This document shows, one piece after another, positions 14,878 through 64,000 of a stretch of 64,000 nucleotides of DNA. Position numbers and translations under genes: made by a program. The notes beneath the pieces were generated by a model that worked only from the letters and a program-made list of their open reading frames with translations, was not told the origin of the DNA and did no database searches. The stretch is from a virus. Lineage: Duplodnaviria > Caudoviricetes. Location of the stretch: the IMG/VR virus record IMGVR_UViG_3300020450_001133; one strand, written 5' to 3'. How positions within the stretch are numbered: the first letter of the stretch is position 1; the number at the start of each line of letters is the position of its first letter.

Positions 14878-14887
14878 TTCTTATCTC

Positions 14888-40959: not shown

Positions 40960-41331
40960 ATGGCAAACATTTACAAAGGCTTTAGTACAGTAAACAAGAT
41001 TAGGGCACCTTATACCTTAACGGATGCCGAACTTGTAAAAACTGATTTACTGAATGAACTCAATACTAGACAAGGTGAACGTGTTATGCGTCCAAAGTTT
41101 GGTACAAGAATTTTTGACATACTTATGAATCCACTAGATGAATATGTTGTCAATGAAGTTGAGGAAGATGTAATCAGAATTGTCAACAAAGACCCTAGAG
41201 TTGAACTACAAACAGTAAAGACAGATGTTTTGGATCACACAATAAGGTGTGCAGTACAACTTAGAATTTTGCCAAGATTAGGTAATGACGAGTTATATGT
41301 AGAATATGCTCGACAAGACGTAGAGTTATAA
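40960..41331 (+). CDS. gp25: Baseplate wedge subunit, gp25-like
   Basis: DLLNELNTRQGERVMRPKFGTRIFDILMNP, DPRVEL. Confidence 0.92.
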   Translation: MANIYKGFSTVNKIRAPYTLTDAELVKTDLLNELNTRQGERVMRPKFGTRIFDILMNPLDEYVVNEVEEDVIRIVNKDPRVELQTVKTDVLDHTIRCAVQLRILPRLGNDELYVEYARQDVEL

Positions 41332-41332: not shown

Positions 41333-44300
41333 ATGGCAGTTAATAGTAGACAAAACAATTTATTTGCGGCAGAGGATTGGGACGTAGCCTATCAGGCATA
41401 TACGCAAGTAGATTTACAAGCATACGACTTCGATACAATTCGAAGTGCTATGGTCGAATATATAAAAACAAATTTCCCTGAAAACTTCAACGACTATATT
41501 GAAAGTTCAGAATTTATTGCTATTATAGAATTGTTAGCATATCTTGGACAAAGTATTGCTTTCAGAATGGATATCAATACTAGGGAAAACTTTTTAGAAA
41601 CTGCAGAAAGAAGAGATTCAGTATTTAAACTTGCAAGAATGTTAGGATACAATCCTAAAAGAAATATTCCAGCAAGTGGATTAATGAAGGTTGTGAGTAT
41701 ATCAACTACAGAACCTTTATCAGACAGCCTAGGCAATCAACTCAATAACAGAACAATCACATGGAACGATGCAAACAATCCAGACAGTTATGAGCAGTTC
41801 ATCACAGTAATGAATAGTGCCTTTGGTCAAGTAAACAGATTTAGTAAGCCTGTTAAGACAGGAACATTGGGTGGTATTGTAACAGACTTATACGAAATAA
41901 ATACCCCAACAAATGCTCCGTTAGTATTCAGTTTTGACTCAACCATAAACGGACAAAAAAGACAATTTGAATTTGTTAATTCTGATTTCACAGATAACAA
42001 ATTCTTTTTTGAAAAACATCCAGACCCTGTAAACAACTTTGGAATGATTTATAGAAATGACGGACTAGGTCTGTCAAGCAAAAACAATGGTTTCTTTATG
42101 TTGTTTAAACAAGGAAAACTAGAACAAAGAGATTTTGATTTTAGTGTGCCTGTAGAAAATAGAACAGAAGAAATTGGAGTATCAGGTATAAATGAAACAG
42201 ACGTATGGTTGCAACAATTAAACAGTTTGAAAACAGTCGTAAACAAATGGACAAGAATACCAAATACAGTTGGACAAACATTACAATATAATGTACAGGC
42301 AAAAAATACTCCATTGTTATATGCAATATCTAATTTAGGTACAGGTGGTATAAAATTAGAATTTGCTGATGGTAACTTTGCTAACGTTCCAGTAGGCGAT
42401 TATAGAGTATATTTCAGAAAGAGTGACAATGAAAGATTTACAATGTCACCTGACGATGTTGGAACCACATCTACTAGAATACCTTACATAAATGCTAAGG
42501 GAGTAAGATATGTTTTAACTGTTACTTCGCAATTACAAAATACAGTTAATAACAGTTTGCCTGAAGAAACAGTAGCAGGTATTAAAGAACGAGCACCACA
42601 ATCATACTATGCACAAGATAGAATGATTACAAACCAAGATTATCAAACATTGCCTTTAGCAAAGAATACTAATATTGCTAAACTTAAAGTTACTAATAGA
42701 ACACATGCAGGGCATAGTAGATATATTGATATCACAGACCCAACAAGCACATTCCAAACAACAGATGTAATTGCTGAGGATGGTGCATTATATTTAGACA
42801 ACGTATTTACTAGCAGTAATTTTGTTATTGATGTAAACAATACTGCTACAGAACAAATTGATAGAACAGTACAACTCATACTTAAAAATTTAAAACTAAA
42901 CGATTTTATTTACAGTACGTTTAGAGATAGTTGGCTGTTAAGACAACCTAATAAATTTAATTTAGAAAACTACAATATAGTATGGCACACATTGCCAAGA
43001 ACCACATCTAGTGTTACAGGATATATGACTGAAACATTTACACAGAATGGAACTATTGCTGACCTTAATGTTGCAGATCCTAATTTGCAACTTATACAAC
43101 CAGGTCATCTTATTAAATTTGTTAATCCACAAAACAAAGCAGAATTTATTTGGGCAAAGATTAAAGTTATACTTGATAATGGTAGACGTGGTGGAAACTT
43201 AACCACGGTGACAGGACCTATCACATTAAGTGAAGCAATACCTGAAAATTGGGAAGGTGTTGAATTAATTACAACTTTAAGAAAAACATTCTTTGACAGT
43301 GAAAAAACTGCACTCAGAAATGCATTAGAAACTAAAAAGACTTTTGGACTAGGGTATAACCCAAGCAACAACTATTACTATATAATTCAAAATAGTAATC
43401 TTAATGCAGGCACAGATTTTGATATTGGTAACGGAGAAGATACATCAGGTAATGGAAGAGATAAAAGTTGGTTATTAAAGTTTCAATACGAAAGCATTGA
43501 CACACTAAGTTATAGATATAATGTAACAACAAGAGGAACAGAGTATGTATTTGAAAGTTTCGAAGATGTAAGATTCTATGATGTGTCATCGAACAGAATT
43601 GTTGATAGTGGAACAGGTTTAGCAAAGTTTGATACAATTGAATTAACAACACTAAACAATAAACCTATATTAGAAGAAAATTTTGAATGGATAGATTCTA
43701 ATGCTACTCCAGACTTTATAGGTGATAAATGGTTCTCAGTAGAACTTGGTCAGACATTTGACCAAATACCATTAAGAAGCAGAGACACAAACTTCGATGA
43801 TGTTGAAGTAAAACTACAAAGTAACTTTGGTTTATTCAGAGAAGGTGATAGAACTAGTAATGCTTTTGTAAACGATGTTGTAATTGAATTAGGAACAACA
43901 TTTGATACTAGTGATGTTTCCAACACTAACGTAGTCATTGCAAACAATTCAGGAGTTATCAGTCAGTTACCTGGTAACATTAATATAGATTTCAGTAATA
44001 CAACATTTGGATATAATATTGTATCTGCAACTGGTAATGGTAATGTTGCATTCAAATACAATGCAGTTTCTTACGATACTGGAAACGTAGGATACGGACA
44101 ACACATAAGTTTAGCAAATGCAAACGTATCAACGCAAACAGGTAATTTGGTTATTGCAAATTATAATACTAAAAATCATTATGCTATAGATAGAACAGGT
44201 TTAACCAGTAAAGATAGACTTACTGTAACCTACCTTAATGAAAAAAGTAGATTAGAAAAACCAATTAAATGGAGTGCTGTTGGTAACTTTGTTTCTTCTG

Positions 44301-45790
44301 ATGGATACACAGATCCTAGAAAAGTTTTAGTAACACCTCAAAACAGCACAGGTGATGATAGTCCTGATAATCCTATTCAGTTTAAAGACTTTGTTAATCA
44401 AAGAAATATTATTTTATATGAAGATTTTGAAAGTTTCGACGGTTATACATATAGCAAACCAGTTAAAGCAGGAATATTAGATTTAAGAAGAGAAGATGGT
44501 GTTAATTTTAACGGAACATCATTTAGTAAAATAGCAGGTAACTCAACAGGAGAGGCAAGTACAGATACAGGTACTGTATATGAAGTAGCAGATTATGATT
44601 ATTTCTTAGTTAAAAAAGAAAGCATAATAGATACTTTTGATAATACAAACGGAAAGTTACATAATAAAAAAGTTTATGCACAAGACACTAATAAAGTATA
44701 TTTGATGACTTATAGTAGCACAAACTTAAATGTTGTAAAACATTATGAAAGTTCTAGACACAGAGCAAAAAAAGGAAGAAGTTTTACACAGAATACTCAA
44801 TCATCTGCACAAGATGGTGTAATTTTTAAATGGCAACATGTTGCAGATAATAGCATGAGAATTGATCCAAGTATTAGTAATGTACATGAGTTCTTTATTT
44901 TAACAGAAACATATTATGATAAAATACAATCATACTTGAATGTTCCAGGAACAACCTTCCCCATAGCACCAAGTAGTTCAGAATTAGAAACAGAATTTGA
45001 AAACTTGCAAGAATTCAAATCTGCAAGTGACCAACTCTTATTTAAGAGTGGTAAGTTTAAATTATTATTTGGTAATGATGCACAACAAAGTCTACAAGCA
45101 AGATTTAAAGTTGTTAGATTACCTGGTACAAGTATCAGCGATAACGAAATTAAAACAAAAGTTATAGCGGCAATCAATCGATATTTTGAAATAGATAATT
45201 GGGATTTTGGTGATACTTTTTACTTTACAGAATTAAGCAGTTACATACATCAACAAGTAGGTAATACTATCGGAAGTATTGTAATTGTACCTAAAAACAG
45301 TCAGGGTGTATTTGGAGATTTATTCCAGGTCAAGTGTAGTTCAGAAGAATTATTCTTAAGCACCGCAACAGTTTTAGATGTAGATGTTGTTGATAAACTA
45401 ACATCAGATAATTTAAGACCTGCACCTGCAACACAAAGTAACTTCTCAACATATGAAAATAGTTTAGAAGAAATTGGCCCATATGCAATAGATGGTTTTT
45501 ATCCTCTTTACAGCACGGCTGAAGCGGCTAACTTTGTAGGTGATGGCACAAACGAAACATTTAAGTTTTTTGGAAAAACATTTTATATGCCTAAAGGCGT
45601 AACACAGTTTAAAGGAAATTATGTAACCAATCAAGCCACAACTACAACTTACACAGGTACCACTGCAACAAATGATAGTGTTGGAAGTTCAGCATCATCA
45701 ACAGGTGGTTCAACAGGATCAGGTGGATCTGGATCTGGTGGATCAGGCGGTGGAGGTTCCGGTGGCGGTGGCGGTGGCTACGGCTATTAA
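41333..45790 (+). CDS. gp6: Baseplate wedge subunit, gp6-like, enlarged, with a Gly/Ser tail
   Basis: DFDTIRSAMVEYIK, ENFLETAERRDSVFKLARMLGYNPKR, EFADGNFANVP, APQSYYAQDRMITNQDY, FGDTFYFTELSSYI. Confidence 0.88.
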   Translation: MAVNSRQNNLFAAEDWDVAYQAYTQVDLQAYDFDTIRSAMVEYIKTNFPENFNDYIESSEFIAIIELLAYLGQSIAFRMDINTRENFLETAERRDSVFKLARMLGYNPKRNIPASGLMKVVSISTTEPLSDSLGNQLNNRTITWNDANNPDSYEQFITVMNSAFGQVNRFSKPVKTGTLGGIVTDLYEINTPTNAPLVFSFDSTINGQKRQFEFVNSDFTDNKFFFEKHPDPVNNFGMIYRNDGLGLSSKNNGFFMLFKQGKLEQRDFDFSVPVENRTEEIGVSGINETDVWLQQLNSLKTVVNKWTRIPNTVGQTLQYNVQAKNTPLLYAISNLGTGGIKLEFADGNFANVPVGDYRVYFRKSDNERFTMSPDDVGTTSTRIPYINAKGVRYVLTVTSQLQNTVNNSLPEETVAGIKERAPQSYYAQDRMITNQDYQTLPLAKNTNIAKLKVTNRTHAGHSRYIDITDPTSTFQTTDVIAEDGALYLDNVFTSSNFVIDVNNTATEQIDRTVQLILKNLKLNDFIYSTFRDSWLLRQPNKFNLENYNIVWHTLPRTTSSVTGYMTETFTQNGTIADLNVADPNLQLIQPGHLIKFVNPQNKAEFIWAKIKVILDNGRRGGNLTTVTGPITLSEAIPENWEGVELITTLRKTFFDSEKTALRNALETKKTFGLGYNPSNNYYYIIQNSNLNAGTDFDIGNGEDTSGNGRDKSWLLKFQYESIDTLSYRYNVTTRGTEYVFESFEDVRFYDVSSNRIVDSGTGLAKFDTIELTTLNNKPILEENFEWIDSNATPDFIGDKWFSVELGQTFDQIPLRSRDTNFDDVEVKLQSNFGLFREGDRTSNAFVNDVVIELGTTFDTSDVSNTNVVIANNSGVISQLPGNINIDFSNTTFGYNIVSATGNGNVAFKYNAVSYDTGNVGYGQHISLANANVSTQTGNLVIANYNTKNHYAIDRTGLTSKDRLTVTYLNEKSRLEKPIKWSAVGNFVSSDGYTDPRKVLVTPQNSTGDDSPDNPIQFKDFVNQRNIILYEDFESFDGYTYSKPVKAGILDLRREDGVNFNGTSFSKIAGNSTGEASTDTGTVYEVADYDYFLVKKESIIDTFDNTNGKLHNKKVYAQDTNKVYLMTYSSTNLNVVKHYESSRHRAKKGRSFTQNTQSSAQDGVIFKWQHVADNSMRIDPSISNVHEFFILTETYYDKIQSYLNVPGTTFPIAPSSSELETEFENLQEFKSASDQLLFKSGKFKLLFGNDAQQSLQARFKVVRLPGTSISDNEIKTKVIAAINRYFEIDNWDFGDTFYFTELSSYIHQQVGNTIGSIVIVPKNSQGVFGDLFQVKCSSEELFLSTATVLDVDVVDKLTSDNLRPAPATQSNFSTYENSLEEIGPYAIDGFYPLYSTAEAANFVGDGTNETFKFFGKTFYMPKGVTQFKGNYVTNQATTTTYTGTTATNDSVGSSASSTGGSTGSGGSGSGGSGGGGSGGGGGGYGY

Positions 45791-45803: not shown

Positions 45804-48800
45804 ATGGCTGACGATAAGCAATATAGTAAATTACCTGCTAACCAACAAACAACAGCAGTCAAAAACTTTTTTGAAAGCACCGTTGAACAGTTGTTTAGTA
45901 AAGCAAATATTGAACAAGTTTCAGGATTTGTTGGTAGAAAAGAATACGAACAGTTTGAACCTACAGACCGTTATGTCAGTCAGCCTACCAGCGGAAGAAA
46001 CTTTTACAGTTTTGAACCAGTAGTAAGTTCAGTAAATCAAATAAGTGGTAGAAGTGAAAACAATGTTTTCTTTGATGACTTTGCTAACATATTAGAAAGT
46101 TATGGTGCAGATACATCAAAACAAAATGTACTTTTTGATTCAGAATTTTACAGTTTCTTACCACCAATTAACATTGACAAATTTATAAACTTCCAAGAAT
46201 ATTTTTGGAGTCCTACGGGCCCTACACCTAAAACTATAGAAGGTACAGTAACAAATCCAATTAATATTGAAAAAGATATTTTAGGAAAGAAAAGTTATAC
46301 AGCACCTGACGGAACAGTATTTAAAAATGGTATGATAGTAACCTTTACAGGAAACTATGCAATACCTTTATCATATCAAGACGACCAACGTTGGATCATA
46401 GAAGGCGTTGGTGAAAGTATTATATTATTCAACAGAGACCAAAACTTTGCAACTACATTTGCAACAGAATTGAATATACCTTTTGACAATACATTAATTA
46501 CCAGTACAGATGAATTAGTAAGCACACCTGGTACTAGCATGTTAAGTGGTGGTCTTATTGGATTAGCGGATCCGGATGGCACTACAATCACAGACTCTAA
46601 CAAGTTTACAGATTATGATGGATATGTTTTACATTATAATGATAGGTATGCACCAGGCGGAAGAACTCCAGCAGTTGGTTATGTTAGTATGTCACAAGTT
46701 GATCCTGATTCAGGACAGCCTTTATGGGCAGGTTACATTACACCAATTGGAACATCACTACAATATGTTGTAGGAGGTTCGGGTGCATTCGATACGCAAC
46801 CTTTTGACAGTGATAATACTCAAACAGTTCCAGACTATATTATGATGCAACGTGGAGCAAAAGATAATAATGTATGGAGTAGAATTAATTTTTGGTATCA
46901 TAGACAAAACTTTTTGGACGTTGGTGACCAACTCCCAGCCAAAAGTGCTAGAGCAACAAGACCTATTTTAGAATTTGATAGAGACCTTGAACTATATAAC
47001 TTTGGTAAATTGGGTGTTGATTCAGTTGAAATATCTTCTTATGATACAACATACTCAGAAGTAGACGGAAGACCTACTAACGGAGTTGTAGATTCTGTTA
47101 CATTAAGAAGTGGTAATAAAATTTTGTTCCCATCAGAAGAACAAAATGTTAGCCAATACATATATCAAGTAGAAAGTAGCACAGAAGCAACTGTTTTTGC
47201 AGACGTAACTAGTTCAACAAATATAACTTTAACATCTACAAATGATGATATAAAAGTTGGTGCAGTTGTTAGTGAGCCAGGAAATAGTTTAAACAATATT
47301 ACAGTAGCAAGTATTAGTGGTACAGCACTTGTTGTTAATTCAGCAATTAGTATTACTGCAGGTACAGTATTAAGTTTTGATGATAGAGTAATTTTAAAAA
47401 GAAAACCAGCAAGTACAAATCCTGCAGGAGCAGTTGATGGTGATGCAAACTTTGTACCATATACACCTACAACAGGTGATGTAGTCAGTATTAAGTTTGG
47501 TGCTAATAAGCAAGGTGTAGAATATTACTGGAGTGGTACTGCATGGTTAGAAGGACAAAAGAAAAATAAAGTTAATACTCCAATACTATTTAATGCTTAC
47601 GATGTAAACAAAAAAGCATTAGACAATGAAGCAGTATATCCAAACAGTATGTTTATAGGAAATAAAATTTTCTCATACAAAGAAGATAATACAATTGGTG
47701 CTACAAGAGACACCGTATTGGATATGGCATTGTCATATAGAAACTTTAATAACTTTAGTGAAATAGTTTTTGTAAACAATTTAGATGATGACTTAGTGTC
47801 ATATAAAGCATTTGGGTCTACGCAAGATTCATTTGTAAAAGGTTATGTGTATTACAAACGTATATTACCAAACGGTGATTCAGAATATTGTACTACTTGG
47901 AAAACACATTCAACAAAAGCAAGTCAAATTGTAAGAGACCAATATATTGTTAGTCAAAAAGATGTTGATGATGAGAGATTGCTTTGGAAAATTAGTGCAA
48001 AGCCAACTGACAATGCAAACAGCATTAGAGTTTATATAAATGATAAAAGGAACAAAACATTTAGTTTTGATCCTAATCAAACTGCAATTACATTTAGCAC
48101 ATTTACATTCAAACTAAATGACGTAATTGATATAGAAATAAAAACTACAGAAGGTAAAATTACTGCTGATGACAGATTCGGTCATTTTGAAGTTCCTGCT
48201 AGTTGGGTAAGCAATTATGAAAATGCAGACATTAAGGAAATATCACAACCACAATATTTAGAACATTTTAGAAACTTTGTTAAGAATCAAGAATTATTCA
48301 GTGGAGATCCATTAGGTTCTAACAACTTTGATAATTTAGAAAAAGACGAAACTTATGCAAACAGAATTATTCAAACAGATGATAGTTTGCAAATGGCATC
48401 TTGGCTAGTAAGTAATGAAAAATTTAATATCATAGATGCAATTAATTTTAATGCTAACGAATATGTAAAATATAAAGCAAGACTGAAATCAGAAATTAAA
48501 AGATACATAGATAACAATGACACATCTACTATGAGTAATAGTGAGATATTGGAATTTGTTTTACAAAATGTTATTGCATTTAATCCTGGTAAGTTAGTAT
48601 TCGATTACAGTTACATGTTAGCATTTGGTGACAAGTACACAGAAGAAAAAATTACAATTAACAATGTTGCCACTAAAAAATATACTCTAACAAATTACTT
48701 AGATTGTAATAATGTACAAAATACAATTTATGTTTATGACCAAGTAAACAATGTTGACACAATGTTACTTGTTGATAAAGATTACACTATAAACAGTCTA

Positions 48801-51800
48801 AATGGTGTTGTAACATTAGAGTTTACATCAACATATACACTTACATTAGGCAATATAATTAAAGTTAGACTGTTTGACTTAAACAGAGAAAGCACACAAA
48901 CTCCCCCAACTCCAAGTGCTATGGGTATTACACCTCTATATGTACCTGAGATTATAAGTGATACAAGTTTTATAAGTCCTATAAATGTTATTGTTGGACA
49001 CGATGGTAGTAGAACAGTAGCAGACAATGATTTGCATGATAACATTTTATTAGAATATGAAAGACGTGTTTATAACAATGTACTACAAGAATACAGAGAT
49101 AAAGACAGTCATCCTGACTTAAACGTACACACTATCAGACCTGGTAGATTTAGAAATACAGGTCTGTCTAGAGAAAACTTTTATAACTTAATAAGAAATG
49201 ATTTTAATCAATATGTTTCAAGAAACGATGTTGATTTTGTAAAAAATGAATTTTATGACACTGATAACTTCTTTACATGGAATTATAATAGTGGCACAAC
49301 TAGCCCAGGCTATTGGAGAGGTATATACGAGAGTTGCTACGATACAGAAAGACCACATACTCATCCATGGGAGATGTTAGGGTTTACTAAAAAACCTACT
49401 TATTGGGACTCAACTTACGGTACAGATTACACAAGTGAAAATAAAAAACTTTGGAATGATTTAGAAGAAGGTAAAATTAGAGGTGGTTCTAGAGAGAACT
49501 TAACTAACAATAAGTTTAAAACAAATAATCCATATAGAAGAATAGGATTAAAAAATGAAATACCTGTTGATGAAAATGGAAACTTAGTAGCACCAGCAAA
49601 CATTATCAGTACAGCCGCTACAACTAAAACAATAGACTTTATAGAAACTACTACAGGTACTGCAACTGCAAATGCAAATAGTTTTATAAAAACAATTGAT
49701 GGACTAAGTGTTAAAGAAATTGGCAGTAACATTTTTGTTAGTTCTACAAATGGTGTTAATCATGAAGTTGGAACTTTTCCAAGCACAAATAATACAGCAT
49801 TTATAGACTTAAACAAAGTATCAAATTATAACATTGTTTCTCTTGCAGGTAACAACAACAGCACAACATATGGTAGTGCTACATCAACAGGAAATACTTC
49901 TGTGGGTGTTGCAGTAAATGGTGCATTAATATTTAACGGTAACACAGGTGTACAACACTCTGAATCAAGTTCATTTAATTATGATGCTATGTACAGAAAT
50001 GATGTAGACAGAGATAGTGCAGGTGGATATCCAGACAGAAATAATTTGTACGGATATGTACAACCTAGTCCACAAACAGTTGGTTTAACTGAGTGGGCAA
50101 CAGATAGTCACTCACCAATTGTGGGTTGGGCATTTGATGGATTCCCTATTTACGGACCATATGGATATACAGATAGACTTAACGTTTCATCTGATATCAA
50201 AAGATTACAAAGTGGTTACAGTTTAAAAACTACAACAAGAACAACAGTTGGTGGAACACCTACAGGCGAATTTATAGAAGATTATGAATACAGCAGTACA
50301 GGTGCAGACTTAGACGAATTCAACGGACGTTTTGGTATTACTCCAGAATATCCAAGTGGTACATATTATTATGTAGCAACAATAGACGCAGACAGCAAAC
50401 CTGCATATCCTTATACAGTAGGAGGCAAGTTTGCAGGAACATTACAAACAGAAGGACCATTTGCCGCATACGGTGAAGAAAATGCAGGTGGTAATTCTCA
50501 TGGTAAAATTGGATACTTTTATCCATTGTACTTAACAGTAGATTCTGCTTTGAGAGAATCTACATCAGGTGGATATCATACCCACACATTTAAAGAACAT
50601 CCTGGTGTTAAGTTCTATATGCCTAATCAATTTTCAAATCATGGCACAGGTTCATACCCAGAAGGAACTTACACATTATACAGTTCAGCAAATGCATTAG
50701 ATTCAGGTACTGCAACTTATACATTAGCAAGTACAGAAACAATCACATTTGGTGCAACTACAAGTTTAACAAATAACACATGGAAATTCAGTGACGGTGC
50801 ACCTGTTGAAAATTCATGGAAAATTTCTGAGGGTTATCCATTTGCGATTGCCTCAGCATTATATCTTACCAAGCCTGGTAAGTTTGCCAGTGTGTTTGCA
50901 GAGCCACAAAAAATAGTTCGTGGTTCTGCGAACACCAACCAATTATTAGAGAATGCTAACTTTAGAAGATTCAAAGTTAAAAATAGTGTTGTACACGGAA
51001 GTAAAGATGACGACAACAAATTAAGAGCAAGTACTGGATATACACAATTTATAGATTCATATTTGAGATTCCAGGGACTTGATACACATACTGAATTTGC
51101 AATTCCATTTGCATCAGTATCAAGTAAATTAGGTAGTAAGTTAGCAGGTTATATTGACAAAGATACAATGACTGTATTCTTGGATAACTATACCACTACA
51201 GGTAATAGTTCAAGTTTAATACTTCCACAAGAAGATATACAAGTAGATGTACACATAGGTCCATATGCAACAACTAATGACTATACAGGTGTATTAGTAG
51301 AACTAACAGAAGATGCAAAATACAAAGTATTTGGATTTAATAGTGTTAAAAAACATTTTGATATAGAACCTAGTTTTAAAGAAGGACCTAGAACACAAAT
51401 AGAAGTAGGCGGTGAACCTGCAGACTTTACTAATTTTAGTAACACAACAAATTATCCTGCAGGTGCTATTGTTAAATCAGGATTCAATTTCTTTAGAGCA
51501 AAAGAACAAGCAAATGCAGGTACTAGTGTAACAAATACAGAAACATGGGAAAGACTTGCAAGTTTACCACAAATTGGTGGTGCTAGAGCAACACTATTCT
51601 TAGAAGGTACTGGACAAGTTGAACGTGTTGAGTATGGAACAGAATATGAAAAATTAGAAGATGTGTTTGACTTATTAATCAGCATAGGCAGACAACAAAA
51701 GAACATGGGATATGTGTTTGACCAATATGATGACAGCATAGGAGACGTAAATGACTGGACATACAGTGGTAAACAATTCCTATTCTGGACATTAGGAAAT

Positions 51801-54800
51801 TGGGCCGCTGGTAATACAATTAGTTTAAGTCCTGGTGCAGGTAAACTTACATTCCAACCTAATATAGGTAGAGTAAGTCCTATATTAGAATCAGACCAAG
51901 GACAGTTTAGCATTTTAGACGAAGAAGGTAAAGTTATTTTGCCTACAGAATGTACCATAATAAGAGAAGATACACAATTGATTGTTAGTCCTCCAGAAGG
52001 AAAACAACTGTATGGTATTATTCTTTACACAAATGAAATAGAACATTCAATGTTGATTAACAACCGAACAACTTTCGGTGATACTATATTTGATGACATA
52101 TTTGGATCAAGACAAAAACGTGTTAAACTAAAAGGTAAGAGAACAAAAAATTGGGACGGTACTTTAACAGCAGAAGGTTATTTAATAACAAGTAACGGCT
52201 TGAAACCAAACTATGATACTTTAGCAGATGACATGAGAAGGTACACAGAAATTGGACATGTGCCTGTTGAAAAGAATTTATATGAATTAACCAGAAGACA
52301 ATATGGTTATGCAGAGAAAAAATATCTAAGAGAGTTTGAATTAATCAACGACAACCAATTTGATTTTTATCGAGGAATGATAAAAAGTAAAGGTACTAAA
52401 ACAGCAATAGAGACGTTGCTTAATAGTAATAAAGTATTAGTACCGGGTTCAGTAGCAGTATATGATGAATGGGGACTGAAAGCAGGTGAGTTTGGTGATA
52501 CAGAAAATGAACAAAGTTTAGATTTAAAAATAACAACTGATGAAATTACAAGTGAATCACAACTAATACAAATTGCTTACCCTGAAAACATTGTTAGTAA
52601 AGTTAAAGAAGTTGAAGTCCTGGATAGAACAACAGTATTCTATCAAAGACCTATATTAGAAATTGAACCACCACCAGCAGAGATTCCAGGATCTTTCACA
52701 TACGGTGGAGGTACAACTGCTAAAGCAACAGTTAATATTTCACAAGACGGAACTATTAGTGATGTAACAGTTGATGAGCCAGGATATGGTTATACAATTA
52801 ATCCTGCTGTTACAGTTATTGCGGCTCAGTTGCTAACAGCAAATGTAACAACAAACTTCTTACAACCATCTGCTATTACAACCAGTGTAGAAATAGGTGG
52901 GTCAGCATCAGGACAATACGTTGACCATGGTGGTATATTTACTGGAGCAAATGCTTTAACAAATGGTATGTTTATAACAGACCACTTTGCACCGTCGGCT
53001 AATGCTAACACATTTGTTGACTTTACAGGACTATCCAACATACAAGCAGTTGCTAATTTAATTAATAATACTGCAGAAGTAAACGCAAACATCAGTGCTA
53101 ATACTACACTGATTACAACAGTAGACGGCAGTGGTAACTTAGTTGAAAATTATCAATTAAATATTAAAGGTAATGACTTTTCATTAAGTAATTCAAATAC
53201 TCAAATAGGTAATATTGCAAATGTTAATTTGCAAGGTAAGAGATATCAACCAAGACAAAGATATAGTTTTGAAAGTGCAAATAGTACAACACATAGTGAT
53301 GTAGTAATCACAGTTAATGGTAACAGCACAACAGGTAATGCCGTTGGTGCTGGTGGTAATATAGATTGGGAATTTGATCCAGGCAGTAGAACAACTGTAA
53401 TAAGTGACAGAGGACTGGTAACAGGAAATGTTTCACAAACATTTAGTTTCCAACCTCTTAGTACAGCAAACATAAGCACATTAGCAGGATCTATTGCAAC
53501 AGATAACTTAAACATTATTAATGGTTCTTATCCTCACATAGAAGTTTATGTTAATGGTAGTTTGCTTTCTGACAAATTAGAGTCAGACGCAACTAGCGGA
53601 TATACAATTACTAATGTTGACTCAAATACAAATAATATCATATTCCATGATGTAAGTCAGTTACCAGGTGGTCAATTAGATGCCCAAGCAAATATTTTAA
53701 TTGTTGAAAAATCAACTGTTGATTTTACAGATACATATCAAGGTGATTTACCAGGTAGCACTCTTAATATTAAAGTGTTTGCCAATGATGCCTTAGCGGC
53801 TAAACTAGAACAAGTTAGAACATTTGAAATTACACCTGACGATGAAAGTGATAACACAATCTTAATTGATGTTGACGATGCAAGTAGATTAGTAGTAAGA
53901 CCATCAGATATGGCAGAAAAAAGTCTATGGCCCTTGACAAGTAGTGTTAGTTATGTTGGTATAGTGGACAGTAAGTATGATCCTTTACCAAACTCAGGAT
54001 ATGTTTCCAAGTATGATGTAGATTACCAAGCAATGGATTTAAGTGATGCTAGAGAACTGTTTAATTCAGATGTGAGAAGACCTAAAGAAATTCCAGGTGT
54101 AAATGATATCATTCATTTTGCTAGAGGAGAACACAATGAGTTTGATGTTTATGAATTAGAAAAAGCAAATGTTTCTAGAATGTTTGTTGAATATGACGAT
54201 GTTAATAATCAAAGTATTTTGTTCTCAGACGTAAGTTTAGATAACTTATACAAAGACAAAAATCAATTAGAAAGAATTACTGCTCCAATTTCAGGAGCAA
54301 CAGCAGATGGTACAAATGTAACATTTACTGCAACACAATTATTTAAGAAAGGCGATAAAGTTACAATATCAAATGTAACACCAAGTGTATTTAATTTAAC
54401 AAATGCAAATATTATTGCGGCAAACATTTCAGCATTTACAGTAGCAAGTAACATAAGCGGTACATACTCAGGTGGTGGTCGTGCAACAACAGATTACGAT
54501 AATACATTATATTATGATAGTGTTATAGCATTAAAAGGAAATACAACATTAGGACCAAATGTTACATGGGCAGGTAACTTAACAAATGCAGAAGGTGATA
54601 AACTATTTGATCCTACAGCATTAAAGATGAATGAAAAATTAATGCTGTATGTTGACGAAACTCAGATATCGGATCAAGCAGTAGAAGTTGCCAACATTAC
54701 TTTTAATCCACCAACTTACAGAGCAATATCTACTATTGCTCCAAAAAATAGTGGCTCAATTACTACTATGGCAAACTATCCTAATGGTTCAGTTAGAGAT

Positions 54801-57800
54801 AGTGCAAACAGCAACTTTAGTGTACAAGCAAACGTACTAACAGGTGGTGATGTACAGATATCATTGGAAGAAAATGCCAACGCATCACCTAACAGAAGTA
54901 ATATAGCAAATGGCAGATATGTAAGATTTGTGGACTCAACAAGCAGTACACTAAACAATAATGCGTTTGTTATTAGTAATGTAATATTTGGTGATGGTAA
55001 TGTAACTAATACATTAACAGGCTTTGCAAATGTAGGACCTATTGTACAATTAGAAACTTCAAACATCACAAGTAACACAAACATTGTTTACATAGATGAA
55101 GTTAAAGACGCAAACGGTAGAGTGCTTTGGGAAAATGAACAAGCAAATGCACAACTAGGAAATTATTTACAAGATTTTGATATTGCAAGTAATAGATTTT
55201 TCTCACCAACAGAAACATCATCAAACATTTTTATTGATGGTGTAAATTTACATGCTAACGGAAAAGTAAATTATGTTGTATTAAGTGAAAATATTGCAGT
55301 ATCAAGTAACATAGCCGCAAATACAGTTATTAACACAACATCTGTACAAGCACAATTTACAAATGCAAATACAAAGATAACAACATTTACTATTAATGAT
55401 CCGGGTGTAAGTTCAAATATTGCTCCAGCAGATTTAACTGCAAGTGTAGATGATGGGTTATTGGTTACAACAGATGCAAATGTCAGTAACTTGATTGCAG
55501 GTGATACAGTATATGTTAATAGAGCAGGTGGATATACCGATACATACATTTTAAGAAAAATAGAACCTAGCGATACTCCTGCAGGAACACAAACTGGTAA
55601 AATACTATTAGATGGTTTCTTCAGTGACCCGCTTTCAAACACATTAACTGTAAATGGTGCAGTTACAGATAGTCCAAATGTTATATTAAATGGCTCTCTA
55701 GTAAACGTACAAGGTGGTATGTTAGTAAGTGGTACAGGTGTTACTGCTGGTACCAAAGTTGTTGATGTAACAAGTCTAAGCAATATTACATTAAGTGCTA
55801 ACGCAAATATTTCCAATGGTGCTACATTAACATTTACTGAAGATACGTTTGGAAATGCAGACATAGTTGATTCAACAATTACAGTTACAACAAGAGAAAA
55901 CCATGGACATCCAACAGATGGCACAGATAAGATTATTGGACAAACAATAACCATTGCAGACTTTGGTGCTGAATTCTACAACAAGAATTATACTGTATTA
56001 GATGTACCTAGTGACAATACCATTGAACTAGAAGGATTTGGATTAGGACACCCACATGCACCAGGCGATGGAAATACTTATATTAACAAACAAGCATTCG
56101 ATATGTTTGGCACAGGAGCAACACAAACAAGAGGTGATTTAGACAACTTTACTGATGACAATGATGATGGAATAGATAATAGAGTTCCAGTATTAGTTGA
56201 AACTTCACAAGGTACATATAATATAGATGGTGCAGATGTTGTTACTAGAGCATACAATTACTTAAATGCAGATGAACTTGTTGATGAAATAAACAGACAA
56301 CTTATACAAAAACAAAATAGTGTAATGGACACAGGTTCCTTTAACGCCGGATTTGCAATACCTAAAGGGTCTCTAAATGCAATGAAGCATAGTATATTTG
56401 GACCAATGGGAAGAAAAGCAGGTGGACCTAAAGCAATTAATGGTGCTGGTCGAATTCCAACTATACCCCCAGGATTCCAAGGTGCACCACAGATTAATAA
56501 TACAGCCATTAACATGGCTAATCCAGGATCGTTCTTAAATCATTTTGGAGCAATAGGGCCTGCAGGAGCAGGTGGTGGATTAGGATTTAATCCATTCCCT
56601 GGTGGAACAAATGTTTCGTTTACACCAGTAGGACCAATTAATTTACCATTTAATCCTGTGAATAATACAGGAACACCTCCACAAGTTCCAACACCAGGTG
56701 CAGGTGCAGGTGGTACACAGGCTCCGCCTTCACCACCGCAAACTCCTATACCACCGATAGTACCTCCAGTACCACCGGCTACACCAACACCTACATACAA
56801 CAGTCCTAACTTGTCCAGTACAGTTAAGGTCGATTCTATAGGAAGTAATTATGGTGTAACAGTTTTGAACTTGGATACGATTAAGACAATAACTCAATTT
56901 GATGAACCTTGTCCTCCACCTCCGCCACCGCCACCACCACCACCGCCTAAGCCAGATGCGGTAACAGTTTGTGAAAAAGTTTCTAATACTAAAGGAACTG
57001 GTGTAACAGAGTGGAAAACATTTACATTTACAAGTAATAATCAATTTGACTATACTGTTAAAATATTATTTGACATGTATAGTGCAAAAGATAAAATGAC
57101 AGTTTATCAGAGTAGTTCTGCAAATCAAGGATCAGGTAGAGTAATTGCTACTACACAAGGCAGTCAAGGACTAGCATTGATGGATCAAAAAGAACTTAAT
57201 GAGTTAGGAGCGGCATTTGGAATTGGTTCAGGCAGTTATTATGGTGGACTGAAAAATTATGTGGGACCTGATGGTTCAGGTTTCTTAACATTTGCAGGTA
57301 AATTAACATTTAGTTATAATGCAGATAATGGTAGATACATACATGTTAAATTAGAAAAAACACCTAAAAGAAGTATTGCATATAGATACTTTATGTGCTA
57401 TCCGCAAGACGCAACATCAGGTGCGGCGCCTAAATTGCCTACACCTCCTGTAGCGGCTTTTGTACCACCAAAGATTCCATTAGGTAATATCCCACTTGGT
57501 ATTCCAAACTTTGGAAACTTAATGGCAGGATCGTTAGGACTAGGAGGCGGAACTCCAAACTTTAACTTCTCTGCTCAAATAGGTGGTATAGGTGCTTTGA
57601 GTTATTCATCACTACCTATTAATATAAATTTAGGAACAAGTAATAAGAGTTTACAGGCAAAAAATAATCCATTTGGATCAACTGTGGCTTCGGGTACTCC
57701 TACATATAGTGCTACCACACAAAGTGGTGCAACCAATTTATTAACTTCTAATCAAGGAGCAGGTGTAGTTAATTATGGTGGAGGAGGAGTTGCTGGAATC

Positions 57801-60800
57801 AGTGTTCCTACTGTACCAGCATCCGCAGGAACACCTGTAACAACAGGAACTAAATTTATCTCATTGGCGCCATTAGCCAAAGCAAATGGCAAGTATCAAC
57901 CTGTACAACCTCCTGTACAAATACCTGTATGTCCTCCAAAACCAAGAGTAAAAATTTGTGGTGAGCCATTAGGAGTAGGTAAAGGTGATTCATTTAAGAT
58001 TGATGATTGTACAATTGATATGAACTTAGGTGCAAATGCAACATTAAATAATGTTAAGAATGCAATTGAAAGTCAATGCGATAAAGTTATTGTAAACATT
58101 AGTTCAAGTCCAACAACTAATGAACAATGTTTAAGTATTATTAAAAAGAGTTCAGACCCAATGGTTATTAGAAATGGGTGTGCAGGTGGTGTATTTAAAG
58201 AAGTACTAGACTATGCGGCACAAAAAACTAACCAAGTAAACTTTAATTCGCATCAACAACAAGATGCACAAAATAATCCAGCGGTTAATACAACATTCCA
58301 AAACCAATTGGGAGCGGCATCAAATCAGAATGATGCATTCACAATGATTACTCCTGCTAGTGTTTCTAGTTTTGTAACAAATACAGTTACAGCAGACGAG
58401 AAAAAACGTCAAAACATTATAGCACAAAGAAGTGGAGTTGCAGGTACAGGTTATAGAGTAATGGATATACTAAGGGTTGTTGGTGGTACTCCTGTAGTTA
58501 GAGTACCTGCTTTGAGTATAGAATCATTAACAGTAAACAATGCAGGCTCAGGATATTTAGACCAAAACAATCAAGCAAGAGGATTAGAAATCAGAATAGG
58601 TGATCCAAGTGATCCAGGTGGTGGCGCACAAGCAGACATGAATAACATTGTGTTTGATACTAATGGTGGACTTGTAGAGATACCATTACTATCAGGTGGT
58701 AGAATGTACAGTCCAGAAAATCCGCCTACAATCACAGTAAAAGGTTTAGGTAAAAATGCAAGAGTTTCTGCAAAATTTGCCACTGCAAAACCTGTAGAAA
58801 GAGTTGCTAAATTTGTTATAACACAAGTAGGTACAAACGGAGAACCTTTAAACTTTGCATGTATTGACAGAGGTGTTTACAAAGAATTCCCAAGTGACCT
58901 AGATAGTGGTTTACCATTAGAATATGATATACAAAGACAAACTCCGTCAGACAAACAAAGTGATGTATTAGGTACAGCAGGATATGAGGCAGGTTCAGGT
59001 ACAGGTGCTAGAATTTATTTAACATCAAGATTTATACCAGACTGTTCAGAAAAAGGTAATGCTTTAACAGACTTAGGATTAAATGAAGGTGTTGTTCCTA
59101 AACCATCAGATGCAGAACAATTAATGGAAACAATTAATGACTATCCAATATTTGGCCCAGACGGTTTCCCATTGTTTGGTGCAGAACTTATAGATGACGG
59201 CAATGGATTCCAAATATTAAAAATTGGTGGACCAAACATTGATGGTATAAGACTTGGTGATGAACTTAATCCAGGTTTATTAGACTTACTAGGAATATTG
59301 CCAGGTTCATACATTAAAGATCCATTACCAGAAGCAGTTAAAATAGACACTGGTGACGGTGGTGGTGACACAATTGGTTTCTTGGGTACAAACGAGATTA
59401 ATACAACAGCAGGTGATGTTATAGGTGGCAATGCTGGTATGTTCACATACACATTGTTAGATATCAATGGTGGCAATACACCTAGACCATTTGAACTAGA
59501 TAAAAGAATTAAAGTTGATGGCTTAATGCTTAAGAGTTTAAGACATGCAACGCCTCCAACAGGTTTTGAAAATATGGCTAATGTATGGATTGACCAATAC
59601 GATGCAAATGGTTGGGCATACTTAGAAGCAAATACAGTTATTAGAAAACAAGAAAAATTAGTAGATGTAAAACGTATTACAGACGTTATAACATATGATG
59701 AGGAAACAGCACATAAAGAATTTGATATAGATTTATATGATCCATTCAAAGGTGTTATACCAGGATTTATAAGCAAGGATATAAACTATAGAAGTACAGT
59801 AGATCCTTGTGTATATGATCCTGCAAGAACAGAATGGGGTAGAGAGCAAGTAGGTACAACTTGGTGGGACACATATAATGCAATTTATCAATGGTACGAA
59901 CAAGGATCAGGTGCATATGGCATCAGTAGATATGTTGACGGCATGGTTGAAAAAGTAGGCTACAACAATACAGAAAGAGCAATTGGTTGGGGTGAAAGAT
60001 TCCCTAGTTCACAAATTGAAGTTTATGAATGGGTTGAAAGTATTAACTTGCCTAATGCATATGAAGGACCAGGTGTTGTAAAAGATCCAAATGCATTTGT
60101 TGTAGAAAAACATGTGGACAATAGAAGCGGTAAGACTGTACAATATTATTACTATTGGGTAAGAGGTGTTTTAGATGTAAGTGATACAGCAAAACAAAAA
60201 TATGGTAGAGACAGAAGTGTTGCAGACTTAGAAAGACTATTAAATGATCCTTATGCAGAAAGAGTTGCTTTTGCAGGTATTATTTCACCTGACGGAATGA
60301 TTGTTAATACACTATCTGATTTAATTAAAACAGATGAAAGTATTTTAAGTGTAAACTTCAAACGTAAAGATCCAATTGCAAGTCAGAAACATAGTAGTTG
60401 GAGACTAATTGGTGAAGGCGACCCACAAGAAAGTATACCTGAGAATTTAAGTATAAAACTAATAGACAGTTTAGCAGGTTATAATGCAATTAATCAAGTT
60501 GTACCAACCAAAGGATTGAGTACAGCAGAACGTTACGGTTCTAAGTTTAGACCTAGACAAACAATGTTTAAAAATCTCAAAGATGCTAGAAAGCAAATGT
60601 TTGATGCATTAAATGAAATCTTTAGAGAAGTTAAAATGGACAGCACGTTCTTAGATTGGAGAACAAAACTTCCTGCTACATTAACTTATTTAGATACTGT
60701 AAATTGGTTTGAAAAACTAAGAGTTAGTGGTATTGATAATTCGCAACTATACTACAACGAAGATTATAAACCATTAAGAAAAGTAACAGATACAAAACAA

Positions 60801-64000: not shown

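What the first reader, a model, noticed from the sequence alone, without database searches (positions are those of the whole stretch)
45804..64000. Single ORF of more than 18 kb (at least 6,065 aa) invisible to the ORF track
Seen: one reading frame occupies the last 28% of the window; all short minus-strand ORFs there are its shadows. This is exceptionally large for a phage protein. Inference: a baseplate wedge scaffold that has accreted adhesin-like, Pro-rich and repeat domains, possibly forming a very large host-recognition apparatus or being processed into several chains.
Basis: seen in the sequence. Interest (0 to 1): 0.7.

Follow-up and report, generated by a model that had tools for sequence, protein, structure and literature searches.

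The report
Giant baseplate protein of marine jumbo phage
The 18-kb open reading frame is a real gene for one virion protein of about 6,270 residues in an uncultured marine jumbo phage; it belongs to a known but uncharacterised family of giant proteins encoded just after the baseplate wedge genes, so its size is normal for the family.

Summary
Observation confirmed. Window 45804-63998 (+) is one stop-free frame of 6,065 codons that runs off the window. The closest relatives put the full length near 6,270 aa.

It is a real gene:
- dN/dS against a relative is 0.18 overall and 0.06-0.40 in every 200-codon bin.
- 14 of 16 population variants are synonymous and none is nonsense.
- The minus-strand ORFs inside it carry stops in the relative.

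It belongs to PHROG 10938, the giant "virion structural protein" of RaK2/K64-1 (3,321 aa), PA5oct (3,857 aa, marked ESI-MS/MS in the record) and Atu_ph07 (4,449 aa). At least 1,313 metagenomic clusters match; among the hits retrieved the median length is about 4,500 aa and the longest is 7,914 aa.

In 8 of 8 loci the gene follows gp25-like and gp6-like wedge genes, where T4 has gp7. No sequence or fold similarity to gp7 was found.

Three scaffold blocks are family-wide. The extra mass is lineage-specific:
- a YHYH-like domain that has lost its histidines;
- a 2,230-aa central insert holding a beta-sandwich on Pro/Gly-rich linkers;
- tandem modules of about 70 aa.

The wedge role rests on gene position only. 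Processing into chains has no support.

The scan noted this family before: e1-518057, e1-5335698 and e1-5341376 on other DNA, and e1-5319751 on this genome.

The parts
40960..41331 (+). gp25-like baseplate wedge gene (123 aa), first gene of the conserved gp25 / gp6-like / giant triplet
   Evidence: PHROG 261/43 baseplate wedge subunit, E 1e-15. PF04965 GPW_gp25 sits at the same place in L008-L010.
41333..45790 (+). gp6-like baseplate wedge gene (1,485 aa, Pfam DUF8360)
   Evidence: PHROG 10646, E 0 over the whole length. PHROG 219 (the family of T4 gp6) matches aa 27-117 with E 1.4e-22. PF27647 in homologues.
45804..64000 (+). giant virion protein gene, 6,065 codons in the window, 3'-open; about 205 more codons expected beyond the window
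45804..49604 (+). conserved scaffold block 1 (aa 1-1267); the extreme N-terminus is the most conserved part
   Evidence: 183 of 194 family proteins span aa 1 to about 1,200. AlphaFold2 model of aa 1-1200: pLDDT 83.5, pTM 0.73. Same fold as the first pieces of Atu_ph07 and uncultured homologues in BFVD, TM 0.6-0.7. Small beta domains at aa 458-527 and 944-1026 match phage tail, fibre and baseplate domains, Z 8-10.
49605..50780 (+). lineage-specific insert 1 (aa 1268-1659) holding a YHYH-like domain (Pfam match aa 1357-1529) without the name-giving histidines
   Evidence: PF14240, E 1.2e-35, 123.6 bits. Absent at this site from PA5oct and the 4,100-5,000-aa class. The nearest cultured relatives of the insert are all marine cyanomyophage structural proteins. 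YHYH reads YGYV and GH reads GY; only H1436 is kept.
50781..52829 (+). conserved scaffold block 2 (aa 1660-2342)
   Evidence: BLAST hits in 186 of 194 family proteins, 180 covering more than 60%. 32% identical to PA5oct gp355 aa 1377-2076.
52830..59522 (+). central lineage-specific insert (aa 2343-4573): N/T/S-rich beta modules, two Pro/Gly-rich linkers and two small domains
   Evidence: PA5oct has 185 aa here. Sub-blocks occur in only 33-66 family proteins. Fastest-evolving part: dN/dS 0.20-0.40 over aa 3001-4400.
56559..56945 (+). Pro-rich linker 1 (aa 3586-3714), ending in a run of 12 Pro
   Evidence: Window of at least 25% Pro, and a poly-P run at aa 3704-3715. A linker at the equivalent place in 27 homologues.
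56946..57428 (+). domain A (aa 3715-3875): jelly-roll type beta-sandwich
   Evidence: AlphaFold2 pLDDT 80-96. Best matches are GOLD, PPC, collagen-binding and CBM51-type sandwiches at Z 7-8.3, none standing out.
57429..57845 (+). Pro/Gly-rich linker 2 (aa 3876-4014), predicted disordered
   Evidence: pLDDT 30-44; composition P 11%, G 15%.
57846..58181 (+). domain B (aa 4015-4126) with four invariant Cys (4043, 4052, 4109, 4126)
   Evidence: Invariant Cys in 33 sequences. pLDDT 62-93. Resembles outer variable domains of FliD and flagellin: Z 8.2, atlas TM 0.2-0.3.
59523..61673 (+). conserved scaffold block 3 (aa 4574-5290)
   Evidence: BLAST hits in 162 of 194 family proteins. 29% identical to PA5oct gp355 aa 2253-2834. 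PHROG 10938 positions 1804-2143.
61734..62702 (+). one partial and four full tandem protein modules of about 70-75 aa (aa 5311-5633; R-x-P-G-T-Y ... G-x-G-H/Y motif)
   Evidence: Motif scan. Present in only 4-5 relatives. No DNA-level repeat remains.
62721..63998 (+). C-terminal block (aa 5640-6065), cut by the window end
   Evidence: Present in 43-54 family proteins. 82% identical to P0003 over aa 5000-6065, and P0003 continues for 210 aa more.

Best explanation
This is one real late structural gene of an uncultured marine jumbo myovirus. It encodes a single protein of about 6,270 aa (about 680 kDa). The protein is a member of the giant 'virion structural protein' family, PHROG 10938 (RaK2/K64-1, PA5oct gp355, Atu_ph07 gp180).

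The gene is the third of the conserved wedge triplet: gp25-like, gp6-like, giant. That is the slot held by gp7 in T4, gpI in P2 and TssG in type VI secretion.

Most likely mechanism (inferred):
- The strictly conserved N-terminus and the three family-wide blocks (aa 1-1267, 1660-2342, 4574-5290) anchor the protein to the gp6-like wedge core. They build the periphery of the baseplate, one copy per wedge.
- The lineage-specific inserts project outward as host-surface-contacting decoration. These are a YHYH-like domain that has lost its predicted metal-binding histidines, strings of small beta modules, a beta-sandwich and a Cys-stabilised domain on disordered Pro/Gly-rich linkers of about 130-140 aa, and tandem modules of about 70 aa.

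Shown: real coding gene, family membership, block-wise accretion, conserved gene position, virion detection of the PA5oct homologue as annotated in its record.

Inferred: wedge attachment, copy number, and a binding rather than enzymatic role for the inserts.
For: Real gene:
- 6,065 stop-free codons.
- dN/dS against the TARA relative is 0.18 overall and 0.06-0.40 in every 200-codon bin.
- 14 of 16 variant sites seen in independent marine metagenomes are synonymous and none is nonsense.

Family:
- PHROG 10938 hits with E 5.7e-174, 1.5e-79 and 1.4e-68 along the protein.
- Colinear blocks with PA5oct gp355.
- 1,313 clusters at E<1e-3 and 716 at E<1e-30; among the ~190 retrieved family proteins the median length is about 4,500 aa and the longest is 7,914 aa.

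Virion protein: PA5oct gp355 is annotated 'virion structural protein, ESI-MS/MS'. The PA5oct paper names gp128, next to wedge gp129, baseplate protein gp130 and hub gp133, among its largest proteins (PMC7318152).

Position:
- gp25-like, gp6-like (DUF8360), giant, a protein of about 200 aa in most loci, then (where recognisable) fibre-like genes. The wedge-gene(s)-then-giant order holds in the window, L002, PA5oct, Atu_ph07, K64-1, L008, L009 and L010.
- The upstream gene matches the T4 gp6 family PHROG 219.
- The T4 gp7 family PHROG 964 is absent from the PA5oct, Atu_ph07 and K64-1 records but is found in T4.

Inserts:
- Block presence counts.
- Relatives carry GLEYA/PA14, CBM_5_12, FG-GAP, Laminin_G_3 and SGNH domains; GLEYA/PA14 were located in the central region of two long relatives.
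- The centre evolves fastest.
- Domain A is a beta-sandwich of the kind used in binding modules.
- A domain at aa 944-1026 resembles the gp10-like docking domain of CBA120 TSP4 and baseplate proteins of P1, phiKZ and phi812 (Z 5.8-8.9).
Against: - No sequence, profile or fold similarity to T4 gp7. hhalign probability is 0.1, there is no PDB sequence hit, and Foldseek against the PDB gives nothing below E 1e-3. The wedge role therefore rests on gene order alone.
- No structure of any family member places the protein in a baseplate.
- The binding role of the inserts is not tested. Fold matches are generic (Z about 8, within the background range stated by the tool), and no lectin or enzyme domain passes Pfam thresholds in this protein apart from the YHYH-like one.
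- The last ~205 residues lie outside the window.
Confidence: 0.65

Rival explanations
1. It is not the wedge protein itself. It is a primary fibre or branching hub that hangs from the baseplate periphery and carries other fibres through gp10-like docking domains, like phiKp24 gp306 or CBA120 TSP4. A small unrecognised protein would then play the gp7 role.
For: - The domain at aa 944-1026 matches CBA120 TSP4 residues 187-250 (Z 8.3, rmsd 1.9), fibre N-termini of Carin-1 and T7, and T4 gp10 weakly by Foldseek.
- Fibre-like genes follow the giant gene (Peptidase_S74, Collar).
- phiKp24 is modelled with a primary fibre that docks secondary fibres through T4gp10-like domains (PMC9700779).
Against: - The gene order gp25 / gp6 / X is the invariant place of the third wedge component in 8 of 8 loci, and no other candidate ORF lies between the gp6-like gene and the giant gene (13-nt gap here).
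- The model is built of globular beta and alpha domains, not a trimeric fibre shaft.
- Z about 8 for a 65-80-residue domain is within background.
Confidence: 0.2
2. It is a polyprotein that is cut into several mature virion chains, with the Pro/Gly-rich linkers as cutting zones.
For: Its extreme length and two long disordered linkers.
Against: - No protease, Peptidase_S74 or other autocleavage domain in this protein.
- The T4-type prohead protease acts inside heads, not on baseplates (established knowledge of T4 assembly).
- Relatives without the linkers are still single ORFs of 3,300-4,900 aa.
Confidence: 0.07
3. It is a head or internal protein, as the PHROG category 'head and packaging' of family 10938 suggests.
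For: PHROG lists phrog_10938 under 'head and packaging'.
Against: PHROG places many generic 'virion structural protein' families (e.g. 701, 4406, 10938, 11190, 12050) under that category. The gene lies inside the baseplate operon (hub, gp25-like, gp6-like, giant, fibres) in all 8 loci. The head genes of this phage lie elsewhere, on the other strand (major head protein 13738-14877, protease 16004-16633, portal 18019-19725).
Confidence: 0.03
4. The long frame is an artefact: a chimeric assembly, or a decayed non-functional gene.
For: The source is a metagenome assembly. No single independent contig spans the ORF; Logan pieces are 2 kb or shorter.
Against: - Purifying selection in every bin.
- Synonymous-dominated population variation.
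- Contigs at least 95% identical (mostly 99% or more) from three other studies tile the whole stretch.
- More than 40 colinear homologues of 5,500-7,500 aa exist, some on contigs over 300 kb.
Confidence: 0.02

Closest known systems
PA5oct gp355 (gp128 in PMC7318152), 3,857 aa virion structural protein; also Atu_ph07 gp180 (4,449 aa) and K64-1 BAQ02794 / RaK2-type 'largest ORF' (3,321 aa); PHROG 10938
   Same: Homologous over four colinear blocks at 29-35% identity. Same gene position after the gp25-like and gp6-like genes. Same predicted fold of the first ~1,200 residues (Atu_ph07 piece in BFVD, TM 0.52-0.63). Function is unknown in all of them.
   Different: About 2,400 aa longer than PA5oct gp355. 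The extra mass is a YHYH-like insert between blocks 1 and 2, a 2,230-aa centre where PA5oct has 185 aa, Pro/Gly-rich linkers with a tethered beta-sandwich, and tandem modules of about 70 aa.
T4 gp7 (PHROG 964), and its analogues P2 gpI and T6SS TssG: the third component of the conserved wedge module
   Same: Gene position directly after the gp6 homologue. Cultured relatives lack any recognisable gp7.
   Different: No detectable sequence, profile or fold similarity. Six times the length of gp7 (1,032 aa).
Giant YHYH-bearing virion structural proteins of marine T4-like cyanophages (e.g. S-RIM44 gp177, 3,328 aa; PHROGs 701, 2885, 4406) and the VrlC-type gp7 substitutes of cyano- and pelagimyophages (PMC7029224)
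   Same: They share the YHYH-like module: 457 phage records, all marine cyanomyophages, at 33-34% identity (PHROG hits). They are also very large baseplate-region proteins of marine myoviruses.
   Different: Similarity is confined to the YHYH-like module. The scaffold blocks are unrelated by sequence. Only a weak BFVD hit to a VrlC-like protein was seen (E 2e-5, TM 0.06-0.08).
Pfam PF14240 YHYH domain, predicted tail-associated Zn-dependent hydrolase (Iyer et al. 2021, PMC7824862)
   Same: Strong HMM match, 123.6 bits against a cut-off of 25. Fused to a tail or baseplate protein, as that paper describes.
   Different: The histidines are mostly gone: GH reads GY (aa 1409), YHYH reads YGYV (1416-1419), and only H1436 is kept. 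This comes from alignment with family member P0093, which has DSANGH..YHYHH.

Membership tests
PHROG 10938 / RaK2-PA5oct-Atu_ph07 giant virion structural protein | Significant profile match along the protein | tested here: met
   E 5.7e-174 (aa 732-1258), 1.5e-79 (aa 1909-2808) and 1.4e-68 (aa 4617-4952) against one 3,324-position profile.
PHROG 10938 / RaK2-PA5oct-Atu_ph07 giant virion structural protein | Colinear conserved blocks with cultured members | tested here: met
   BLASTP against PA5oct gp355: q1-218, 558-1267, 1660-2342 and 4574-5169 in the same order. tblastn hits in 92 jumbo phage records.
PHROG 10938 / RaK2-PA5oct-Atu_ph07 giant virion structural protein | Gene directly downstream of the gp25-like and gp6-like (DUF8360) genes | tested here: met
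   8 of 8 loci.
PHROG 10938 / RaK2-PA5oct-Atu_ph07 giant virion structural protein | Incorporated in the virion | not testable with these tools
   Only the PA5oct record's ESI-MS/MS note. This is an uncultured phage. Contigs from an RNA library cover 22 of 30 bins, which does not prove transcription.
T4 gp7 baseplate wedge protein (PHROG 964) | Sequence or profile similarity to gp7 | tested here: not met
   hhalign of 19- and 90-sequence profiles against T4 gp7 gives probability 0.1. No PHROG 964 hit.
T4 gp7 baseplate wedge protein (PHROG 964) | Fold similarity to gp7 in the solved T4 baseplate (5IV5) | tested here: inconclusive
   The model of aa 1-1200 was searched whole. Only two small domains filled the lists, and gp7 did not appear. 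The N-terminal domain was not searched alone.
T4 gp7 baseplate wedge protein (PHROG 964) | Gene follows the gp6 homologue | tested here: met
T4 gp7 baseplate wedge protein (PHROG 964) | Forms a heterotrimer with two gp6 chains (core bundle) | not testable with these tools
   Needs a baseplate structure or pull-down of a cultured member.
Pfam PF14240 YHYH | HMM match above the gathering score | tested here: met
   123.6 bits against 25, aa 1357-1529, profile positions 13-184 of 193.
Pfam PF14240 YHYH | Conserved His triad plus Asp of the predicted Zn site (PMC7824862) | tested here: not met
   Only two His in aa 1357-1529 (H1385, H1436). The GH and YHYH positions of P0093 align to GY and YGYV.
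VrlC-type gp7 substitute of cyano- and pelagimyophages | Sequence or fold similarity | tested here: inconclusive
   One BFVD row, phiM9 VrlC-like: E 2e-5 but TM 0.06-0.08. No Pfam or PHROG hit.

The most novel reading that the evidence does not exclude
The giant protein is a single-chain replacement for the whole peripheral baseplate, doing the jobs that T4 splits among gp7, gp8 and gp10-type proteins. Six copies would add about 4 MDa to the baseplate. Its marine-specific centre would work as a capture device: a beta-sandwich and a disulfide-stabilised domain cast out on disordered Pro/Gly-rich leashes of about 130-140 residues, which find sparse host cells before the fibres commit. That would be a new kind of receptor-search apparatus in tailed phages.
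Probability: 0.15. Interest if true: 0.65.

Novelty: new member of a known kind. Interest (0 to 1): 0.35.

Why it matters
No member of this giant protein family has a known structure, location or function. Yet the family is found in at least 1,313 sequence clusters, and it holds the slot of the third wedge protein in a large clade of jumbo phages that includes therapy candidates (PA5oct, RaK2-like Klebsiella phages).

The marine clade shows how far the family can grow by inserting modules at fixed sites between conserved scaffold blocks. It also marks the centre (aa 2343-4573) as the fast-evolving part that is probably exposed to the host. This gives concrete domain boundaries for expression and for cryo-EM docking.

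It does not change current ideas. It extends a catalogued but neglected family.

Tried and rejected
- Extending the ORF. No whole genome is held. Exact-word scans of viral and metagenome contigs with the last 60 nt found nothing. Megablast against phage records found nothing. The length was therefore taken from relatives.
- The look-up of encoding contigs refuses proteins over 5,000 aa.
- PDB sequence searches of both halves, and of the N-terminal profile, found nothing.
- Pfam at E up to 1 on ten pieces gave only the YHYH domain.
- An ESM Atlas feature search of aa 2343-3560 gave only unnamed viral clusters with scores of 0.85 or less.
- Complex prediction with two copies of gp6-like aa 1-380 plus giant aa 1-232 returned 'no answer' (score 0.00; the partner's own fold was uncertain). 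This is no evidence either way.
- hhalign of the 90-sequence profile against T4 gp10 gave probability 0.25.
- BLASTP found no similarity between domain A/B and the GLEYA region of P0038.
- Self-BLAST at E 1e-3 found no internal repeats. The modules were found by motif instead.
- No DNA-level repeats and no template/variable repeat pair suggestive of a diversity-generating retroelement in the ORF.
- The T4 late-promoter word TATAAATA is not inside the gene, so there is no sign of internal late transcripts of the T4 type.
- No supplementary tables of the PA5oct paper are held, so the gel-slice position of gp128, which would bear on processing, could not be read.
- Joints in laid contigs had short sides (22-68 nt), each in a single contig, and were treated as noise.
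- The 2-nt deletion at 54333 is in one RNA-library contig only.
Full report
**Observation**

With open ends allowed, the ORF list shows a single frame 45804..63998 (+) of 6,065 codons. It starts at an ATG and runs off the window. The translation has no stop.

The ATG lies 13 nt after the stop of the preceding gene, behind an AAGGT word. The N-terminus MAD(D)K..LP....T is shared by every relative.

The window end aligns to residue 6,038 of the 6,248-aa relative P0003, at 82% identity over the last 1,066 residues. In the TARA scaffold L002 the same gene spans 3603-22498, broken only by a 100-N scaffold gap, and runs about 205 codons past the point that matches the window end. The whole protein is therefore about 6,270 aa. 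An overlapping-window note of this scan reads 6,269 aa (e1-5319751). The 6,065 residues in the window weigh 660 kDa and have pI 4.7.

**Is it a real gene?**

- Codon-by-codon comparison with L002 gives dS 0.84, dN 0.15 and dN/dS 0.18. Every 200-codon bin lies between 0.06 and 0.40, including the low-complexity centre.
- Near-identical DNA is held by marine metagenomes of at least seven studies from 2014-2025.
- Contigs of three studies other than the possible source tile all 30 bins of 45001-64000, mostly at 99% identity or more and all at 95% or more.
- Of their 16 variant sites inside the ORF, 14 are synonymous, 2 are missense and none is nonsense.
- The three minus-strand ORFs of 150 aa or more inside the gene have 2-4 stops in the homologous frame of L002, so they are shadows.
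- Contigs from an RNA library cover 22 of 30 bins. By the tool's own caveat this does not prove transcription.
- No independent contig spans the whole gene. Colinear homologues of 5,500-7,500 aa lie on contigs up to 338 kb.

**What family**

Pfam sees only a YHYH domain (PF14240, aa 1357-1529, E 1e-35).

PHROG 10938, 'virion structural protein' with a 3,324-position profile, matches three stretches with E 6e-174 to 1e-68.

tblastn of the first 1,350 residues hits 92 jumbo phage records. The best are PA5oct and its kin (33% identity), Salicola SCTP-2, Atu_ph07, and RaK2/K64-1-like phages of Klebsiella, Salmonella and Escherichia. The annotated homologues are:

| Phage | Protein | Length | Note |
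|---|---|---|---|
| PA5oct | gp355 | 3,857 aa | 'virion structural protein, ESI-MS/MS' |
| Atu_ph07 | gp180 | 4,449 aa | |
| K64-1 | BAQ02794 | 3,321 aa | |

The PA5oct paper names this protein (its gp128) among the phage's largest. It sits next to wedge gp129, baseplate protein gp130 and hub gp133. The paper gives it no function (PMC7318152).

A full scan of 1.84 billion representatives with aa 1-1200 finds 1,313 clusters at E<1e-3 and 716 at E<1e-30. Over the ~190 family proteins retrieved from the two searches, the median length is about 4,500 aa, the 90th percentile is 6,322 and the maximum is 7,914. Giant size is the rule in this family, and this member is in the upper part of the range, not a record.

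An earlier follow-up of this scan on a RaK2/121Q-like genome reached the same reading (e1-518057). First-reader notes flag relatives of 5,532 and 6,236 aa in two other genomes.

**Gene context**

Upstream on the same strand lie:

- a structural gene at 33171;
- a 900-aa structural protein;
- a gp5-like hub (902 aa);
- a gp25-like gene (40960-41331);
- a 1,485-aa gp6-like gene (41333-45790). It matches PHROG 10646 end to end, and its N-terminus matches PHROG 219, the family of T4 gp6.

In seven of the eight loci examined the order gp25-like, DUF8360 (gp6-like), giant is annotated or detected, usually followed by a protein of about 200 aa and then further structural genes that are fibre-like where recognisable. 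In the sparsely annotated K64-1 record the giant gene follows a 1,154-aa ORF taken to be the gp6 homologue. The eight are the window, L002, PA5oct, Atu_ph07, K64-1 and three distant metagenomic members of 4,134-4,893 aa.

In contractile injection systems generally, the gene after the gp25 and gp6 homologues encodes the third wedge component: T4 gp7, P2 gpI, TssG. This is established knowledge of these systems, not tested here.

The T4 gp7 family (PHROG 964) is absent from the complete PA5oct, Atu_ph07 and K64-1 records, while the T4 control is found.

**Is it homologous to gp7?**

Not detectably.

- Profiles of 19 and 90 family sequences against T4 gp7 give hhalign probability 0.1.
- PDB sequence searches are empty.
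- An AlphaFold2 model of aa 1-1200 from a 90-sequence alignment is confident: pLDDT 83.5, pTM 0.73, with only aa 224-336 poor.
- Foldseek against the PDB finds nothing below E 1e-3.
- The exhaustive VIA search is filled by two small beta domains.
  - aa 458-527: Z up to 9.9; a barrel seen as decoration in tail tubes, tailspikes and capsids.
  - aa 944-1026: Z 5.8-9.6; matches the Carin-1 fibre, P1 baseplate chain Y, the gp10-like domain of CBA120 TSP4, the phiKZ inner peripheral baseplate protein and the phi812 baseplate.
  - These scores are within the background the tool quotes.
- Against BFVD the model matches the first pieces of family members (Atu_ph07 and uncultured 'YHYH domain-containing' proteins) at TM 0.5-0.7. 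The N-terminal architecture is therefore family-wide.

The wedge assignment thus rests on gene order and on the lack of another candidate. It does not rest on homology.

**Anatomy**

Mapping against PA5oct and 194 family proteins separates scaffold from inserts.

| Part | Residues | Found in (of 194) |
|---|---|---|
| Scaffold block 1 | 1-1267 | 183 span the start |
| Insert 1, YHYH-like | 1268-1659 | marine 5,500-7,500-aa class only |
| Scaffold block 2 | 1660-2342 | 180-186 |
| Central insert | 2343-4573 | sub-blocks in 33-66 |
| Scaffold block 3 | 4574-5290 | 158-162 |
| Tandem modules | 5311-5633 | 4-5 |
| C-terminal block | from 5640 | 43-54 |

*Insert 1.* Its closest cultured relatives are 457 phage records, nearly all marine Synechococcus or Prochlorococcus myophages (one Actinomycetia record), where it sits in structural proteins such as the 3,328-aa S-RIM44 gp177. 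Iyer et al. predict that YHYH domains are tail-associated Zn hydrolases with a His triad and an Asp (PMC7824862). Here the Pfam-matched stretch holds only two His. Alignment with family member P0093, which has DSANGH...YHYHH, shows GH replaced by GY (aa 1409) and YHYH by YGYV (aa 1416-1419), with only H1436 kept. A catalytic role is therefore unlikely here.

*Central insert.* PA5oct has 185 aa at this site. The insert begins with N/T/S-rich beta modules. From about aa 3480 it becomes Gly/Pro/Asn-rich, and aa 3586-3714 are at least 25% Pro, ending in twelve consecutive Pro. A Pro-rich linker lies at the equivalent place in 27 relatives.

A model of aa 3715-4140 from 33 sequences gives three parts:

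- a confident beta-sandwich (aa 3715-3875, pLDDT 80-96);
- a disordered Pro/Gly-rich linker (aa 3876-4014, pLDDT 30-44);
- a second domain (aa 4015-4126, pLDDT 62-93) with four invariant Cys (4043, 4052, 4109, 4126).

Cys is otherwise rare: 16 in 6,065 residues, 10 of them between aa 3703 and 4126.

The sandwich resembles GOLD, PPC, collagen-binding and CBM51 modules at Z 7-8.3. The second domain resembles outer domains of FliD and flagellins at Z 8.2 and atlas TM 0.2-0.3. Neither match stands out.

This centre evolves fastest, with pN 0.16-0.31 and dN/dS 0.20-0.40 over aa 3001-4400, against pN 0.03-0.09 in most scaffold bins.

Longer relatives carry GLEYA/PA14 lectin domains in the same variable centre. 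Shorter ones carry CBM_5_12, FG-GAP, ILEI, Laminin_G_3 and SGNH esterase domains.

*Tandem modules.* aa 5311-5633 hold one partial and four full modules of about 70-75 aa with an R-x-P-G-T-Y ... G-x-G-H/Y motif. They leave no DNA-level repeat.

**Most likely mechanism**

Shown:
- a real, selected, single gene;
- membership of the giant virion-protein family;
- a fixed position in the wedge operon;
- growth by insertion at fixed sites.

Inferred:
- The conserved N-terminus and scaffold blocks dock on the gp6-like core as the third wedge component. By analogy with gp7 there would be one copy per wedge, six per virion, about 4 MDa in total.
- The inserts face outward and make contact with the host surface by binding rather than by catalysis.

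I put the 'real virion baseplate-region protein' part at about 0.9, the gp7-equivalent role at about 0.55-0.6, and the adhesive role of the inserts at about 0.5.

The main rival is a fibre-branching hub hung on the baseplate. It is favoured only by the gp10-like small domain and the fibre genes downstream. Processing into several chains, a head location and an assembly artefact have little or no support.

**Novelty**

The family and its place next to the wedge genes are on record: PHROG 10938, the annotated records, and the PA5oct paper. An earlier report of this scan described the RaK2-type member.

What is added here for the marine clade is:
- the block and insert map;
- the loss of the YHYH histidines;
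- the conserved module of Pro/Gly-rich linker, beta-sandwich, second linker and Cys-stabilised domain;
- the length distribution of the family.

I did not find a paper that assigns a function or location to any member (searches; reads 40-42, 82, 83, 89). That is a limited library, not proof that none exists.

Verdict: a new, unusually expanded member of a known but uncharacterised kind, of moderate interest.

Noticed in passing
window 5362-8394 (-) and 8498-13609 (-): Two tail-fibre-like genes (1,010 and 1,703 aa; PHROG 697, 22593, 19602) share many diverged DNA repeat modules (17 direct-repeat families, 60-83% identity). Their 3' ends are colinear (5552-5748 against 8703-8899). They look like paralogous fibre genes built from shuffled modules.
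   Followed up: partly
window 41333-45790 (+): The gp6-like wedge protein is 1,485 aa, more than twice T4 gp6, and ends in a Gly-rich tail. Its first 400 residues are 60-96% identical to the 120 best of 3,488 matching metagenomic proteins (Pfam DUF8360), far more conserved than the giant gene beside it.
   Followed up: partly
window 28564-28571 (-): The T4 late-promoter word TATAAATA occurs once in 64 kb, against 8.2 expected from shuffles. This phage avoids the word or uses a different late promoter.
   Followed up: no
window 50499-50642 (+), aa 1566-1613 of the giant protein: A His cluster (NSHG ... GGYHTHTFKEHPG ... NHG) lies just after the degenerate YHYH-like domain. It is kept only in the closest relatives (P0003, P0006). 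It could be a small metal site of recent origin.
   Followed up: partly
window 54333: One contig of a metatranscriptome library (X17) lacks 2 nt here, which would break the frame. No DNA run shows it. It is probably an assembly error.
   Followed up: no
L002 9717-9816: In the TARA scaffold the homologous giant gene is split by a 100-N scaffold gap. The flanks overlap by about 18 residues, so public gene calls list it as two proteins (2,074 and 4,165 aa). Such splits will make the family look shorter in databases.
   Followed up: yes
window 13738-19725 (-) and 23181-24062 (+): Head genes (major head protein, a PHROG 10922 protein, prohead protease, portal) lie on the minus strand. A baseplate hub gene (PHROG 150) stands alone on the plus strand, away from the main baseplate operon.
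   Followed up: no
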